Assembly (NCBI RefSeq): GCF_044324785.1
Contig: NZ_CP172127.1
Direction: 5' to 3' (one strand)
Source of the DNA: Escherichia coli
GTDB taxonomy: Bacteria; Pseudomonadota; Gammaproteobacteria; Enterobacterales; Enterobacteriaceae
DNA: 64,000 nucleotides
This document shows positions 14,419 to 18,326 of the stretch, piece by piece. How positions within the stretch are numbered: position 1 is the first letter of the stretch; each line of letters starts with the position of its first letter. Made by a program: the position numbers and the translations under genes. The notes beneath the pieces were generated by a model. That model saw only the letters and a list, made by a program, of their open reading frames with translations. It was not told where the DNA came from and searched no databases.

Positions 14419-16488
14419 ATGTCTGAGAAAACTTTTCTGGTGGAAATCGGCACTGAAGAGCTGCCACCAAAAGCACTGCGCAGCCTGGCTGAGTCCTTTG
14501 CTGCGAACTTTACTGCGGAGCTGGATAACGCTGGCCTCGCACACGGCACCGTTCAATGGTTTGCTGCTCCGCGTCGTCTGGCGCTGAAAGTAGCTAACCT
14601 GGCGGAAGCGCAACCGGATCGTGAAATCGAAAAACGCGGCCCGGCGATTGCTCAGGCGTTCGACGCTGAAGGTAAACCGAGCAAAGCGGCAGAAGGTTGG
14701 GCGCGTGGTTGCGGTATTACCGTTGACCAGGCTGAGCGTCTGACTACCGATAAAGGCGAATGGCTGCTGTATCGCGCCCACGTGAAGGGCGAAAGCACCG
14801 AAGCTCTGCTGCCGAATATGGTTGCGACTTCGCTGGCGAAACTGCCGATCCCGAAACTGATGCGTTGGGGTGCAAGCGACGTGCACTTCGTGCGTCCGGT
14901 GCACACCGTGACTCTGTTGCTGGGCGACAAAGTTATTCCGGCTACCATTCTGGGCATTCAGTCCGATCGCGTAATTCGCGGCCACCGCTTTATGGGCGAG
15001 CCGGAATTCACTATCGACAATGCCGATCAGTATCCGGAAATTCTGCGTGAGCGCGGGAAAGTCATCGCCGATTACGAAGAACGTAAGGCGAAGATTAAAG
15101 CCGATGCCGAAGAAGCGGCGCGTAAGATTGGCGGTAACGCTGACTTAAGCGAAAGCCTGCTGGAAGAAGTGGCTTCGCTGGTGGAGTGGCCGGTCGTTCT
15201 GACCGCGAAATTTGAAGAGAAATTCCTCGCTGTGCCGTCTGAAGCGCTGGTTTACACCATGAAAGGTGACCAGAAGTACTTCCCGGTGTACGCGAACGAC
15301 GGCAAACTGCTGCCGAACTTTATCTTCGTTGCCAACATCGAATCGAAAGATCCGCAGCAAATTATCTCTGGTAACGAGAAAGTCGTTCGTCCACGTCTGG
15401 CGGATGCCGAGTTCTTCTTCAACACTGACCGTAAAAAACGTCTGGAAGATAATCTGCCGCGTCTGCAAACCGTGCTGTTCCAGCAACAGCTTGGCACACT
15501 GCGTGACAAAACTGACCGCATCCAGGCACTGGCTGGCTGGATTGCTGAACAGATTGGCGCTGACGTTAACCACGCAACCCGTGCGGGCCTGCTGTCCAAG
15601 TGCGATCTGATGACCAACATGGTCTTCGAGTTCACCGACACCCAGGGCGTTATGGGGATGCACTACGCGCGTCACGATGGCGAAGCGGAAGATGTTGCCG
15701 TGGCGCTGAACGAGCAGTATCAGCCGCGCTTTGCCGGTGATGACCTGCCGTCTAATCCGGTAGCCTGTGCGCTGGCGATTGCTGACAAGATGGACACCCT
15801 GGCGGGTATCTTCGGTATCGGTCAGCATCCGAAAGGCGACAAAGACCCGTTTGCGTTGCGTCGTGCCGCACTTGGCGTGCTGCGTATTATCGTTGAGAAG
15901 AACCTCAACCTTGATCTGCAAACGCTGACCGAAGAAGCGGTGCGTCTGTATGGCGATAAGCTGACTAATGCCAACGTGGTTGATGATGTTATCGACTTTA
16001 TGCTCGGTCGCTTCCGCGCCTGGTATCAGGACGAAGGTTACACCGTTGACACCATCCAGGCGGTACTGGCGCGTCGTCCGACTCGTCCGGCTGATTTCGA
16101 TGCCCGAATGAAAGCGGTATCGCACTTCCGTACCCTGGATGCAGCTGCAGCACTGGCGGCGGCGAACAAGCGTGTATCTAACATTCTGGCGAAGTCTGAC
16201 GAAGTGCTGAGCGATCGCGTGAATGCTTCTACTCTGAAAGAGCCGGAAGAAATTAAACTGGCGATGCAGGTTGTGGTGCTGCGCGACAAGCTGGAGCCGT
16301 ACTTCGCTGAAGGTCGTTACCAGGATGCGCTGGTCGAACTGGCTGAATTGCGTGAACCGGTTGATGCCTTCTTCGATAAAGTGATGGTCATGGTTGATGA
16401 CAAAGAATTGCGAATCAACCGTCTTACCATGCTGGAGAAACTGCGCGAACTGTTCCTGCGCGTTGCGGATATTTCGCTGTTACAGTAA
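14419..16488 (+). CDS. glyS: glycine--tRNA ligase beta subunit
   Basis: 689-aa [23 protein letters not shown]...; 9 bp after glyQ stop. Confidence 0.97.
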
Positions 16489-16502
16489 TAACGCCGTTAT
16501 TA

Positions 16503-16531
16503 AAAAGCCTGCCATCTGGCAGGCTTTTTTA
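16503..16531 (+). terminator. rho-independent terminator of glyQS
   Basis: gcctgcc-atct-ggcaggc hairpin followed by TTTTTT. Confidence 0.8.
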
Positions 16532-16707
16532 TCGCTAAATAATAGAGCAACCTTTAATAATCTTCTGCTGAATAAAGATTATCTCATATATTAATTTTAT
16601 GAGATTTTTTTAGGATTATATCAAGGAGAAGAAACGAACTTATTAAGCTAGAATAGCTGCGGGTGCTTGAGACTGTTTGTCTCAGGTATTCACCGAAAGG
16701 CAGACAG

Positions 16708-16775
16708 AGAAAAGCCCCACCTGACTATAAATCAAAGTGAGGCTACCCTATGCCTGAACACCATAAGGTTAGCCT
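16708..16775 (-). ncRNA. sokA: putative Sok-type antisense RNA of the hokA locus (approximate bounds)
   Basis: Inference from hok/sok architecture; minus-strand hairpin with U-tract lies just upstream of the mokA start; exact ends not determinable. Confidence 0.35.
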
Positions 16776-16962
16776 CTTACTCGTTGGAAATCAACACAGG
16801 AGGCTGGGAATGCCGCAGAAATATAGATTGCTTTCTTTAATAGTGATTTGTTTCACGCTTTTATTTTTCACCTGGATGATAAGAGATTCACTGTGCGAAT
16901 TGCATATTAAACAGGGGAGTTATGAGCTGGCGGCATTTTTAGCCTGCAATTTGAAAGAGTAA
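16750..16962 (+). CDS. mokA: Mok-type overlapping reading frame (translational coupling frame for hokA)
   Basis: 70-aa ORF in the same frame as hokA starting 60 nt upstream, as in other hok/mok loci. Confidence 0.6.
   Translation: MPEHHKVSLLLVGNQHRRLGMPQKYRLLSLIVICFTLLFFTWMIRDSLCELHIKQGSYELAAFLACNLKE
16810..16962 (+). CDS. hokA: Hok-family type I toxin, small membrane peptide (50 aa)
   Basis: MPQKYRLLSLIVICFTLLFFTWMIRDSLCELHIKQGSYELAAFLACNLKE; AGGAGG 7 nt upstream of the ATG. Confidence 0.85.
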   Translation: MPQKYRLLSLIVICFTLLFFTWMIRDSLCELHIKQGSYELAAFLACNLKE

Positions 16963-17117
16963 GAGTGTTTGGCGGGAAGTTATTCCCGCCTTTCTTACGG
17001 CGTTGCGCATTCTCATTGCACCCAAATTTATTTCTTTAATGAATGTTTTTTTAGATACGAATGGATTTGGCTATTAAATAAGTTTTTAATCGGGAACAGG
17101 AATGGTTCGGAGCCTTC

Positions 17118-17489
17118 ATGAATAAACTGCTTTTACTGTTGATAATGCTCTATCAACGACATCTTTCTCCTCGCAAAGGATACCGCTGTGCTTACAGTGT
17201 GTTGTACCAAACGCAGGGATGTTCGGGAGCAGTCAAAGAGATTATTCAACAGAAAGGTGTTATTGCAGGCTGGGGCGAGATACGTCAGCGTTTTGCAGAT
17301 TGCCGACTTGCGGCACTGACAATCAGGCAGAAGCAACACCTGAACGAGGTAATACGTAAAAAGAAGAATAATAATTGTGATTGTTCCGGGTGCGATGGTG
17401 CGGTCTGTCGTGATTGCGACATTCCGGTGCCGGATCTGGATTGTTCCTGGGACTGTTCTTCTCTACATATAAAGCGGTTTTTCCAATAA
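17118..17489 (+). CDS. hypothetical Cys-rich protein; N-terminus loosely resembles the YidD/DUF37 signature, C-terminus has CxC/CxxC clusters
   Basis: 123-aa ORF; GGAG 6 nt upstream of ATG; motif LYQRHLSPRKGYRC resembles the YidD YQRxISP...CR pattern; identity not confirmed. Confidence 0.45.
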   Translation: MNKLLLLLIMLYQRHLSPRKGYRCAYSVLYQTQGCSGAVKEIIQQKGVIAGWGEIRQRFADCRLAALTIRQKQHLNEVIRKKKNNNCDCSGCDGAVCRDCDIPVPDLDCSWDCSSLHIKRFFQ

Positions 17490-17520
17490 AAAAATCCCCG
17501 CCAAATGGCAGGGATCTTAG
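17490..17520 (-). terminator. cspA rho-independent terminator
   Basis: Minus-strand hairpin ccctgcc / ggcgggg (one G-U pair) followed by U-tract immediately after cspA stop. Confidence 0.6.
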
Positions 17521-17542
17521 ATTCTGTGCTTTTAAGCAGAGA

Positions 17543-17755
17543 TTACAGGCTGGTTACGTTGCCAGCTGCCGGGCCTTTAGCGCCGCTTTCGATGGTGAAG
17601 GACACTTTCTGACCTTCGTCCAGAGATTTGTAACCATCGTTCTGGATAGCAGAGAAGTGTACGAACACGTCTTTAGAGCCATCGTCAGGAGTGATGAAGC
17701 CGAAGCCTTTGTCAGCGTTGAACCATTTTACGATACCAGTCATTTTACCGGACAT
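17543..17755 (-). CDS. cspA: major cold shock protein CspA
   Basis: 70 aa [38 protein letters not shown]..., canonical CspA. Confidence 0.98.
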
Positions 17756-17915
17756 AGTGTATTACCTTTAATAATTAATTGTGCCTTTCGGCGATATGGC
17801 GTGCTTTACAGATTTTTGAAGCGTTAAAGGAAATGCACTACGAGGGGTATCAACGATAACTCTTGAAGAGGACTTGCCTTACTACACTGCTTTAATGGTC
17901 TGTACGTCAAACCGT
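17756..17915 (-). promoter_or_regulatory. cspA long 5' untranslated leader including the cold-box element (UGACGUACAGA, complement of 17899-17909)
   Basis: Reverse complement of 17901-17915 reads ACGGTTTGACGTACA, matching the recalled 5' end of cspA mRNA; leader is about 160 nt. Confidence 0.7.
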
Positions 17916-18035
17916 TGAGTGCATTAAGCCACGCATTGGCGGGTGATGCAACAATTATTTTTCATATTTATGATTAATCGGTTGGAAAACGGTCCTGTCA
18001 TCAGGACCGTAAACAGCAATAAAGTGGATAAAAGT

Positions 18036-18326
18036 CTATTCCATCAACTGCTTACTTAATGCCGGGTTGGCTTGAATCAAACGCATCAATTTTAGTTCGG
18101 CACTTGAAGGCTTCACGCGTCTGGATTCCCATTCCTTTACCATGGCGACTGATACGCCCAAAACCCGGGCGAAATCATCGATTTTTAACCCTGTCCCTTT
18201 TCGTAACTGCTCAATTTCGGTACAGGACGTTGTTCTGTGCGTCAGGGTAATTTTCTGCGTTTCATCTTTAAAAACAATCTGTTCCAGGCTGCTCAACAGC
18301 TCATGCATTGGATCTTTATATTCCAT
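18036..18326 (-). CDS. yiaG: XRE-family HTH transcriptional regulator YiaG
   Basis: 96-aa ORF with helix-turn-helix segment (KIDDFARVLGVSVAMVKEWE). Confidence 0.85.
   Translation of the reverse strand: MEYKDPMHELLSSLEQIVFKDETQKITLTHRTTSCTEIEQLRKGTGLKIDDFARVLGVSVAMVKEWESRRVKPSSAELKLMRLIQANPALSKQLME

What the first reader, a model, noticed from the sequence alone, without database searches (positions are those of the whole stretch)
17118..17489. Unrecognised 123-aa Cys-rich ORF between hokA and cspA
A plausible gene (GGAG 6 nt before the ATG) encodes a protein whose N-terminus (LYQRHLSPRKGYRC...CSGA) loosely resembles the YidD/DUF37 signature and whose C-terminus carries a dense cysteine cluster (CDCSGCDGAVCRDCD...DCSWDC) suggestive of metal binding. 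I cannot match it to a named K-12 gene; in K-12 this neighbourhood is the one disrupted by IS150, so the gene may be split or missing there. It may be co-regulated with the adjacent toxin locus or be an unrelated small metalloprotein.
Basis: partly seen in the sequence, partly recalled or inferred. Interest (0 to 1): 0.4.

Follow-up and report, generated by a model that had tools for sequence, protein, structure and literature searches.

The report
Accessory YidD-like gene, cysteine-rich tail
This is a real but optional E. coli gene, absent from K-12 and about 98% of sequenced strains, that encodes a second, divergent copy of the small membrane-protein-insertion helper YidD with an added cysteine-rich tail whose function (possibly metal binding) has never been studied.

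Summary
The ORF at 17118-17489 (+) is real, and it is a gene. It encodes 123 aa with GGAG 5 nt upstream of the ATG. Its N-terminal 65 residues match the YidD family: NCBIfam TIGR00278 at 74 bits against a cut-off of 40, Pfam PF01809 at 26.1 against 27, and hhalign 97% against E. coli YidD. A basic helix follows, then a disordered Cys/Asp-rich tail.

RefSeq already names it "yidD". The true yidD, in the rnpA-yidC operon, is present in 5424 of 5426 complete E. coli genomes. This gene is present in only 112.

Orthologues sit in the same place, tail-to-tail with cspA, in E. fergusonii, other Escherichia, Klebsiella and Superficieibacter. dN/dS is 0.05-0.17 for the N-domain. K-12 lacks the gene because about 453 bp are replaced by about 60 bp, an allele shared by most strains. 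IS150 is not the cause: it lies on the other side of hokA and coexists with the gene in other strains.

The protein belongs to an uncharacterised subfamily of roughly 1,800-2,400 clusters at 50% identity. The hallmarks are YQRxLSPRKGYxCA, C-x10-C spacing, and tails of about 10% Cys and 10% Asp. No gene partner is conserved across lineages.

Function is inferred only: a membrane-peripheral YidD-like module carrying a thiolate-rich, probably metal-binding tail. Interest is modest.

The parts
17118..17489 (+). Complete CDS of the accessory YidD-family paralogue (123 aa plus stop)
   Evidence: ORF list and sequence. TIGR00278 scores 74.4 bits against a cut-off of 40. PGAP annotates it as yidD in E. 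coli N3 at the equivalent position. The exact protein is on 302 public contigs.
17109..17112 (+). Shine-Dalgarno-like GGAG, 5 nt before the ATG
   Evidence: Read directly from the sequence. It is conserved in all Escherichia orthologue loci aligned.
17124..17312 (+). YidD-like N-terminal domain (residues 3-65). It comprises a short hydrophobic N-terminal helix, the YQRHLSPRKGYRCAY motif, and three invariant Cys (C24, C35, C62) with C-x10-C spacing.
   Evidence: HMM matches cover residues 3-63 and 3-67. Invariant columns come from the family alignments. hhalign gives 97% probability against canonical YidD. AF2 pLDDT is 61-90. dN/dS is 0.05-0.17.
17313..17375 (+). Basic linker (residues 66-86, net charge +5), predicted to continue the last helix
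   Evidence: Charge count. AF2 predicts a helix through residue 85. Family-wide, the first 25 residues after the third Cys are rich in K/R, averaging 5.8 K+R.
17376..17456 (+). Cys/Asp-rich cluster (residues 87-113; 7 Cys, net charge -6; CDCSGCDGAVCRDCDIPVPDLDCSWDC), predicted disordered
   Evidence: Composition. AF2 pLDDT is below 50. Family tails are 10% Cys and 10% Asp, with CD and DC the commonest dipeptides. C87, C97 and C113 are nearly invariant.
17457..17486 (+). Short basic C-terminal end (SSLHIKRFFQ). It is specific to the enterobacterial members.
   Evidence: Alignment of enterobacterial orthologues. About half of the other family members end within 3 residues of the last Cys.
17032..17484 (.). 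Segment present in this window but replaced by about 60 bp of unrelated AT-rich sequence in about 98% of E. coli, including K-12. It holds the gene and about 85 bp upstream of it.
   Evidence: Alignments with strains 2012C-4221 and the K-12-like 7A. The segment is found in 112 of 5426 genomes.
16971..16990 (+). Terminator-like hairpin after hokA, separating hokA from the gene
   Evidence: Terminator scan. The hairpin is conserved in both alleles.
17491..17518 (-). cspA intrinsic terminator hairpin. Its A/T run starts directly at the gene's stop codon, so the two genes converge and share it.
   Evidence: Terminator scan. The Rfam cspA model RF01766 spans 17488-17916 on the - strand at 482 bits, overlapping the stop codon. 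The same stop-to-terminator junction is seen in Klebsiella and Superficieibacter.
16810..16962 (+). hokA (neighbour, not part of the unit)
   Evidence: PGAP annotation transferred from N3. The Rfam sok model matches at 16661-16812.
17543..17755 (-). cspA (convergent neighbour, conserved synteny partner within Enterobacteriaceae)
   Evidence: ORF list and annotations.

Best explanation
SHOWN:
- The ORF is a genuine accessory protein-coding gene.
- It is a divergent paralogue of yidD and sits alongside the core yidD of the rnpA-yidD-yidC operon.
- Its position, converging on cspA and sharing the cspA terminator, is old within Enterobacteriaceae.
- About 98% of E. coli, including K-12, lack it because a short segment has been replaced.
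- In E. coli the tail looks less constrained and has lost a cysteine.
- The protein has three parts: (1) a YidD-like helical domain with the family's YQ..SP..G..C...CS...R..C core; (2) a basic helix; (3) a disordered acidic tail with 7 Cys.

INFERRED (mechanism):
- By homology to YidD, the N-domain and basic helix hold the protein at the cytoplasmic face of the inner membrane. It has no transmembrane helix, signal peptide or lipobox.
- The flexible Cys/Asp tail chelates soft or borderline metal ions such as Zn, Cd, Cu or Fe, acting as a membrane-tethered buffer or donor.
- In E. coli the gene is dispensable.
For: Family:
- TIGR00278 scores 74.4 bits against a cut-off of 40. hhalign gives 97% probability against canonical YidD, whose sequence was verified.
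- The invariant residues Y12, Q13, S17, P18, G21, C24, C35, S36, G47, R58 and C62 are shared with canonical YidD.

Paralogue, not the core gene:
- Canonical yidD is in 5424 of 5426 genomes. This gene is in 112 of 5426.

Real gene under selection:
- Whole-gene dN/dS is 0.2-0.35 within Escherichia and 0.11-0.2 against Klebsiella.
- The N-domain has dN/dS 0.05-0.17. The tail has 0.03-0.13 in non-coli Escherichia, Klebsiella and Superficieibacter pairs.
- In two of three comparisons with divergent Escherichia loci its dS matches that of the flanking glyS and yiaF; against L017 it is lower, 0.16 against 0.25-0.29.

Ancient position:
- The glyS-(hokA)-(ABC-F)-gene-><-cspA-yiaG order is the same in E. 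fergusonii, divergent Escherichia, K. aerogenes, K. spallanzanii and Superficieibacter.
- The stop codon abuts the cspA terminator in three genera.

Architecture:
- AF2 with 122 sequences predicts helices to residue 85 at pLDDT 61-90 and a tail below 50.
- The highest 19-residue hydropathy is only 0.43, so there is no transmembrane segment.

Tail as a conserved feature:
- The subfamily comprises 1,833-2,399 clusters at 50% identity.
- Tails have a median of 8 Cys and are 10% Cys and 10% Asp. CD and DC dipeptides dominate, and Cys spacings of 1-4 residues are typical.
- Cys counts show no preference for even numbers, which argues against obligate disulfides.
Against: - There is no experimental evidence of any kind for expression, localisation or metal binding.
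- No metallothionein or other metal-binding family matches the tail. The best hit is PF12669 at E=0.027, below its cut-off.
- AF2 gives no structure for the tail, and the PDB holds no structural neighbour.
- No metal-homeostasis gene is a conserved neighbour. Synteny holds only within lineages.
- The consensus scan found no convincing sigma-70 promoter upstream.
- Comparisons involving the E. coli allele give a tail dN/dS of 0.47-0.67. A conserved Cys is replaced (C111W), and C109Y is added in E. fergusonii-type alleles.
- Frameshifted copies exist (P0002, P0010, P0018), so the E. coli copy may be losing function.
- Even the membrane association of canonical YidD is known to me only from Yu et al. 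2011 (J Bacteriol 193:5242), as cited in PMC8082313. I could not read that paper.
Confidence: 0.55

Rival explanations
1. The database name is right. The gene is simply a second, functionally redundant YidD that assists YidC/Sec-dependent membrane-protein insertion, and the tail is an irrelevant or merely modulatory appendage.
For: It scores above the TIGR00278 equivalog cut-off, at 74.4 against 40 bits. All core YidD residues are kept. hhalign gives 97%. PGAP names it YidD.
Against: Several YidD features are not met:
- It lies outside the rpmH-rnpA-yidD-yidC operon.
- The Cys spacing is C-x10-C rather than C-x5-C.
- It lacks the C-terminal HP...GG.DPVP end of canonical YidD.
- It falls 0.9 bits below Pfam's gathering score.

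The tail itself is under purifying selection in Klebsiella, Superficieibacter and non-coli Escherichia, with dN/dS 0.03-0.13. Cys-rich tails are a family-wide trait over about 2,000 clusters. The whole subfamily scores about 72-74 bits against 91 for true YidD.
Confidence: 0.2
2. In E. coli the gene is an evolutionary leftover. It is intact by chance, no longer contributes to fitness, and is on its way to being lost as in 98% of strains.
For: It is present in only 112 of 5426 genomes, most of them one near-identical allele. Pairs involving the E. coli allele give a tail dN/dS of 0.47-0.67, against 0.03-0.13 elsewhere. The E. coli and E. fergusonii alleles carry the C111W and C109Y replacements. 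Frameshifted variants are present in public data. No good promoter was found.
Against: The ORF is annotated as an intact yidD CDS in every one of the roughly 75-100 of the 112 complete genomes that were listed and in all four annotation tables opened. The N-domain still shows dN/dS of about 0.11-0.13 in E. coli comparisons. The substitution counts behind the relaxed tail signal are very small, with Nd 6.5-7.5 and Sd 2.5-3.5. This rival concerns present fitness value, not what the protein does.
Confidence: 0.2
3. The protein is a precursor of a ribosomally made, post-translationally modified Cys-rich peptide (RiPP or bacteriocin-like). The conserved N-domain would be the leader and the variable tail the core peptide.
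For: The architecture, a conserved roughly 65-aa N-terminal part followed by a hypervariable Cys-rich C-terminus, superficially resembles NHLP/Nif11-type or SCIFF-type precursors (my own knowledge). The tails are highly variable.
Against: No modification enzyme, protease or exporter is a neighbour here: the flanking genes are hokA and cspA. None recurs across 80 loci from many phyla. The gene often sits among housekeeping genes. The N-domain is a bona fide YidD fold with its own conserved Cys.
Confidence: 0.03
4. It is a component or regulator of the adjacent hokA/sokA toxin locus.
For: The only evidence is adjacency: the gene starts 155 nt downstream of hokA on the same strand.
Against: A terminator-like hairpin lies between the two genes. 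Orthologues in K. aerogenes and Superficieibacter have no hokA next to them, and in K. spallanzanii an ABC-F gene intervenes. Most E. coli keep hokA without this gene. Strains CP52E and CUPF09 keep the gene while hokA is frameshifted.
Confidence: 0.02

Closest known systems
[quoted passage not shown]
   Same: The N-terminal 65 residues are homologous: hhalign 97% and 31% identity. The YQR.[LI]SP..G..C...CS....G....R..C core and three invariant Cys are shared. Both have a short hydrophobic or amphipathic N-terminal helix, are small and basic, and lack a transmembrane segment.
   Different: - It is not in the rnpA-yidD-yidC operon.
- It is accessory (112 of 5426 genomes) rather than core (5424 of 5426).
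- It has a 5-residue insertion between the first two Cys, giving C-x10-C against C-x5-C.
- It carries the signature SPRKGYxCA instead of SPLLGxxCRF.
- It lacks the HP..GG.DPVP end.
- It adds a basic helix and a roughly 40-residue Cys/Asp tail.
FeoB-associated Cys-rich membrane protein (Pfam PF12669)
   Same: The layout is similar: a small protein with a membrane-binding N-terminus, a basic stretch and a short Cys-rich C-terminus. It is the only tail-region Pfam hit (residues 78-100, E=0.027).
   Different: The hit scores 15.2 bits against a cut-off of 27, so this protein is not a member. PF12669 proteins have a true transmembrane helix and no YidD domain. No feoB lies nearby.
Bacterial metallothioneins (SmtA/BmtA, MymT) - comparison from my own knowledge
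   Same: Both have a high Cys density with C-x-C, C-C and C-x-x-C spacings in a short, otherwise unstructured polypeptide. Cys counts show no even-number preference.
   Different: There is no sequence match to any metallothionein family. The tail is unusually rich in Asp (CD/DC dipeptides) and lacks the His residues typical of SmtA. It is also fused to a membrane-associated domain.
[quoted passage not shown]
   Same: [quoted passage not shown]
   Different: There is no homology. PacL1 has a transmembrane helix, a Gln/Ala repeat spacer and an adjacent P-ATPase partner gene. Here no transporter partner is conserved.

Membership tests
YidD family (PF01809 / TIGR00278), broad sense | Significant match to the family HMMs | tested here: met
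   TIGR00278 scores 74.4 bits against a cut-off of 40, E=4.8e-21. Pfam PF01809 scores 26.1 bits against a gathering score of 27, E=7e-6, so it falls just below. hhalign against verified E. coli YidD gives probability 97%.
YidD family (PF01809 / TIGR00278), broad sense | Conserved YQ..[LI]SP motif and three conserved cysteines | tested here: met
   Y12, Q13, S17, P18, G21, C24, C35, S36, G47, R58 and C62 are invariant in an alignment that includes canonical YidD.
Canonical YidD (orthologue of E. coli yidD, 'equivalog') | Located in the rpmH-rnpA-yidD-yidC-mnmE cluster | tested here: not met
   The gene lies between hokA and cspA. The canonical gene sits in the rnpA-yidC cluster and is present separately in 5424 of 5426 genomes.
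Canonical YidD (orthologue of E. coli yidD, 'equivalog') | Single-domain protein of about 70-100 aa with the C-x5-C (CRFxPTCS) motif and an HP...GG.DPVP C-terminus | tested here: not met
   The protein is 123 aa with C-x10-C spacing (129 of 133 subfamily members). There is no HP..GG.DPVP end, which is replaced by a basic linker and a Cys/Asp tail.
Canonical YidD (orthologue of E. coli yidD, 'equivalog') | Improves YidC/Sec-dependent membrane-protein insertion and contacts nascent substrates (Yu et al. 2011, cited in PMC8082313) | not testable with these tools
   This needs in vitro insertion or cross-linking assays. The primary paper is not held.
SPRKG-type, Cys-tailed YidD-like subfamily (defined here; not a curated family) | YQRx[LI]SPRKG[YFW]xCA motif, C-x10-C spacing, and a Cys-rich C-terminal extension | tested here: met
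   The window protein has all three features. The subfamily comprises 1,833 clusters at E<=1e-10. It has 130 relatives among 100,044 species-representative genomes.
Metallothionein / metal-binding Cys-rich domains | Match to a curated metal-binding family or demonstrated metal binding | tested here: not met
   No metallothionein family appears at E<=10. The PDB sequence search gives only insignificant zinc-finger-like hits at E=0.8. Metal binding itself cannot be tested here.
RiPP precursor | Co-located modifying enzyme, protease or exporter genes | tested here: not met
   No such neighbours are present here. No neighbour family recurs across lineages in 80 loci.

The most novel reading that the evidence does not exclude
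The SPRKG-type YidD-like proteins form a widespread, unstudied subfamily. It comprises about 2,000 clusters at 50% identity across Proteobacteria, Actinobacteria, Deinococcus, Abditibacteriota and cyanobacteria. They may be membrane-insertion-site metallochaperones or thiol buffers. In that reading a YidD module docks at the YidC/Sec insertion site and a flexible Cys/Asp tail hands metal ions, or reducing equivalents, to membrane proteins as they are inserted. The E. coli copy would be a decaying remnant of that system.
Probability: 0.1. Interest if true: 0.6.

Novelty: new variant of a known kind. Interest (0 to 1): 0.3.

Why it matters
For E. coli annotation, the finding clarifies three things. 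The hokA-cspA interval is polymorphic. K-12 carries the gene-less allele. Two different genes are both labelled 'yidD' in RefSeq, and the accessory one is an over-specific equivalog call.

More generally, it flags a sizeable, phylogenetically broad YidD-like subfamily with a Cys/Asp-rich tail that appears never to have been examined. YidD itself has no solved structure and only a loosely defined role. A paralogue with a chemically distinctive appendage could therefore help show what the YidD fold does at the membrane. For E. coli physiology the stakes are low, because the gene is dispensable in about 98% of strains.

Tried and rejected
- **Chance ORF:** rejected on conservation, synteny and dN/dS.
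- **IS150 disruption in K-12:** rejected. IS150 lies upstream of hokA and coexists with the gene in ST405-type strains and CP52E.
- **Pseudogene remnants in the majority allele:** none found. A global alignment shows only patchy AT-rich similarity.
- **Structural neighbours:**
  - Foldseek against the PDB gave nothing below E=2.5.
  - The afdb50 library was unavailable.
  - The PDB sequence search gave nothing significant.
- **Promoter:** the consensus scan found none upstream of the gene. By eye, only a weak candidate -10 (TTTAAT, 17085-17090) with a poor -35.
- **Conserved gene partners:** all-against-all BLAST of ORFs in 80 loci found only lineage-restricted synteny, for example acyl-CoA dehydrogenase-GST-gene-thiolase in Rhodobacterales.
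- **Literature:** four searches found nothing on a Cys-tailed YidD paralogue or on YidD cysteines or metal. Yu et al. 2011 is not held.
- **Lipoprotein, signal peptide or transmembrane segment:** there is no lipobox before C24, the maximum 19-residue hydropathy is 0.43, and homologues have Arg inside the N-terminal helix.
- **Disulfide-rich secreted peptide:** tail Cys counts show no even-number preference and there is no export signal.

Full report
**1. The observation**

The window contains an ATG-initiated ORF at 17118-17489 (+) encoding 123 aa.
- GGAG lies at 17109-17112, 5 nt before the start.
- Upstream is hokA (16810-16962, +), followed by a terminator-like hairpin at 16971-16990.
- Downstream, converging on the ORF, is cspA (17543-17755, -). 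The cspA terminator hairpin (17518-17491, -) begins right at the ORF's stop codon.
- The Rfam cspA mRNA model covers 17488-17916 (-) at 482 bits, so the two transcripts must overlap at their 3' ends.
- The protein has 10 Cys, 7 of them in residues 87-113.

**2. What the protein is**

NCBIfam TIGR00278 (YidD) matches residues 3-67 at 74.4 bits against a cut-off of 40. Pfam PF01809 matches residues 3-63 at 26.1 bits, just under its cut-off of 27.

I took the true E. coli YidD from the rnpA-yidD-yidC cluster of a K-12-like genome. A profile of the ORF's relatives aligns to it with 97% hhalign probability. Y12, Q13, S17, P18, G21, C24, C35, S36, G47, R58 and C62 are invariant across both groups.

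The differences from canonical YidD are systematic:
- The signature is SPRKGYxCA instead of SPLLGxxCRF.
- A 5-residue insertion gives C-x10-C spacing instead of C-x5-C, seen in 129 of 133 relatives.
- The canonical HP..GG.DPVP end is lost.
- Two elements are added: a basic linker (residues 66-86, net charge +5) and an acidic Cys cluster (residues 87-113, net charge -6).

AlphaFold2 with a 122-sequence alignment predicts helices through residue 85 at pLDDT 61-90 and an unstructured tail below 50 (a 22-sequence run agreed). There is no transmembrane segment: the maximum 19-residue hydropathy is 0.43. No solved structure resembles the protein.

**3. It is a second, accessory yidD-like gene**

- Canonical yidD is found at 99% identity or better in 5424 of 5426 complete E. 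coli genomes.
- This ORF is found in 112 of 5426, always on the chromosome and in a single copy. It is labelled yidD in every hit row listed; the four annotation tables opened show an intact CDS. (6, 21-23)
- Most of the 112 carry one near-identical allele. Several of those strains are named 405 or O102:H6, which from my own knowledge suggests the ST405 lineage.
- The exact window protein occurs on 302 public contigs under the same automatic name.

The gene is therefore 'unrecognised' only from a K-12 viewpoint. The equivalog name is probably too specific.

**4. Why K-12 lacks it**

- Aligning the window with an IS150-free strain (2012C-4221) and a K-12-like strain (7A) shows window ~17032-17484 replaced by about 60 bp of AT-rich sequence. 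That sequence has no convincing homology to the ORF allele.
- Both flanks, the hokA terminator and the cspA terminator, are intact.
- IS150 in K-12-type strains sits between glyS and hokA, with similarity to the window resuming at about 16778.
- ST405-type strains and CP52E have IS150 there and still keep the intact ORF.

The prediction that K-12 lacks the gene is right.

**5. Conservation and selection**

Orthologues occupy the same slot, after glyS (with or without hokA and an ABC-F gene) and tail-to-tail with cspA-yiaG. This holds in:
- E. fergusonii;
- two divergent Escherichia lineages;
- K. aerogenes and K. spallanzanii;
- Superficieibacter.

In Escherichia, Klebsiella and Superficieibacter the stop codon abuts the A-run of the cspA terminator.

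| Comparison | dN/dS |
|---|---|
| Whole gene, within Escherichia (dS 0.1-0.34) | 0.2-0.35 |
| Whole gene, against Klebsiella | 0.11-0.2 |
| N-domain | 0.05-0.17 |
| Tail, L004-L017, K. aerogenes-K. spallanzanii, and the two Superficieibacter | 0.03-0.13 |
| Tail, three of the four Escherichia pairs involving the window allele (0.13 against L004) | 0.47-0.67 |

- The dS of the ORF (0.32) matches that of flanking glyS and yiaF (0.27-0.33) against locus L004. Against L017 it is lower, 0.16 against 0.25-0.29.
- The window-type E. coli allele has replaced a conserved Cys (DCSCDC to DCSWDC). E. fergusonii-type alleles have lost another (DYSWDC).
- The substitution counts are small, so relaxed constraint on the E. 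coli tail is a hint, not a result.
- Frameshifted versions exist in public data: P0002, P0010, P0018, and in Klebsiella P0012 and P0013.
- The window allele is 97.0% identical in nucleotides to the E. fergusonii allele and 93-95% to the other Escherichia alleles. In the same comparison the neighbouring yiaG is only 78% identical. The region is therefore mosaic, and exchange between species is possible.

**6. The wider family**

- A profile search of 1.84 billion cluster representatives found 2,399 proteins at E<=1e-3 and 1,833 at E<=1e-10.
- A motif scan (YQRx[LI]SPRKG) of one genome per species found 130 relatives in 100,044 genomes.
- The relatives come from:
  - Enterobacteriaceae;
  - many Rhodobacterales;
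  - Burkholderiales, Neisseriales and Rhodocyclales;
  - Abditibacteriota and Deinococcus;
  - Actinobacteria such as Kocuria and Cellulomonas;
  - cyanobacteria.

Two tail types are visible:
- The proteobacterial type has a basic linker and a long tail with 6-19 Cys.
- The actinobacterial, Deinococcus and cyanobacterial type is short and ends ...GVCCCGPIPIPFRF.

Across 137 representatives:
- Tails are 10% Cys and 10% Asp.
- CD and DC are the commonest Cys-containing dipeptides.
- Cys-Cys spacings of 1-4 residues dominate.
- The median is 8 Cys, with no even-number preference.

About half of the members end within 3 residues of the last Cys.

An all-against-all comparison of neighbouring ORFs in 80 loci found only lineage-restricted synteny. 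No partner is shared across phyla.

**7. Mechanism**

Shown: homology of the N-domain to YidD; the three-part architecture; purifying selection on both the N-domain and, outside E. coli, the tail; and the absence of export or lipidation signals.

Inferred:
- The N-domain and basic helix place the protein at the cytoplasmic face of the inner membrane. Canonical YidD is described this way (Yu et al. 2011, cited in PMC8082313). I could not read that paper.
- The reduced, flexible, thiolate- and carboxylate-rich tail binds metal ions.

I put the identity statement at about 0.9 and the metal-binding mechanism at about 0.3.

Rivals:
- A redundant YidD.
- A decaying relic in E. coli, which is compatible with either of the mechanisms above.
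- A RiPP precursor, for which there are no enzymes nearby.
- A hokA accessory, refuted by comparative data.

**8. Novelty and score**

The gene is already in databases under an automatic YidD name. The fold family is known. The held literature does not describe the Cys-tailed SPRKG subfamily. I class it as a new variant of a known kind.

It is a tidy annotation clarification and a modest lead into YidD biology. It is not a surprise for specialists. Interest is 0.3.

Noticed in passing
window ~16778 (insertion point in K-12-type strains); L003:1584-2953; L014:1-269; L015:1-267: IS150 is inserted upstream of hokA, in the mokA/sokA region, in K-12-like strains. It is also there in ST405-type strains and CP52E, which still carry the YidD-like gene. 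The IS150 insertion and the gene's presence or absence are therefore independent polymorphisms.
   Followed up: yes
window 17448-17450 (codon 111, TGG); P0175, P0176, P0178, P0179; L021: The window allele has Trp where other Escherichia, Klebsiella and Superficieibacter have a conserved Cys (DCSCDC to DCSWDC). E. fergusonii-type alleles and some E. coli alleles have additionally lost C109 (DYSWDC). This suggests erosion of the last Cys cluster in this lineage.
   Followed up: partly
L102/L103 (E. fergusonii) against window 14419-18326: The region is mosaic. The ORF is 97.0% identical between the window and E. fergusonii-labelled loci (dS 0.08). In the same comparison glyS has dS 0.21 and yiaG is only 78% identical (dS about 1.0). 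This points to recombination or allele exchange around cspA among Escherichia species.
   Followed up: partly
L001:820-2889 (E. coli N3 glyS) against window 14419-16488: N3 is the closest complete genome for the hokA-cspA interval (99.6%) and for yiaF (dS 0.012). Its glyS nevertheless differs from the window's by dS 0.217 and dN 0.017. N3 therefore carries an imported or unusual glyS allele.
   Followed up: no
L008:2295-3914, L011/L013:2280-3899 (Klebsiella): In Klebsiella a 539-aa ABC-F ATPase lies 87-101 bp upstream of the orthologue on the same strand. Its best NCBIfam match is 'ribosomal protection-like ABC-F family protein' at 332 bits, below the 380 cut-off. The two genes may form an operon. 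Escherichia has no such gene at this position.
   Followed up: partly
P0002, P0010, P0018 (Escherichia); P0012, P0013 (Klebsiella): Frameshifted or truncated versions of the gene circulate in public assemblies. P0002 has 25 member sequences with the frame lost inside the Cys tail. This is consistent with recurrent pseudogenisation, or in some cases with sequencing errors.
   Followed up: no
window 17418-17429 (IPVP); L022-L024; L038; L051-L099: A motif [ILVM]P[ILVFM]P next to the tail cysteines is shared by enterobacterial tails and by the short actinobacterial/Deinococcus tails (CCCGPIPIPFRF). It is nearly absent from other proteobacterial members. It occurs in 27 of 68 loci against 0.6 expected from shuffling, but the occurrences cluster by lineage.
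   Followed up: partly
L015:370-523; L016:370-523: hokA is annotated as frameshifted in strains CP52E and CUPF09, which retain the intact YidD-like gene.
   Followed up: no
L025-L050, L073 (Rhodobacterales): In 14-15 Rhodobacterales genomes the family member sits in a conserved fatty-acid-oxidation neighbourhood: acyl-CoA dehydrogenase, glutathione S-transferase, the gene, thiolase, then a FadB-like enzyme. In L020 two MerR-type regulators lie upstream. This is synteny within one order only.
   Followed up: partly
window 16496-16562 (-): There is a sub-threshold Rfam match to the enterobacterial sRNA STnc370 (46.3 bits against a gathering score of 54). It overlaps the glyS terminator region.
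   Followed up: no
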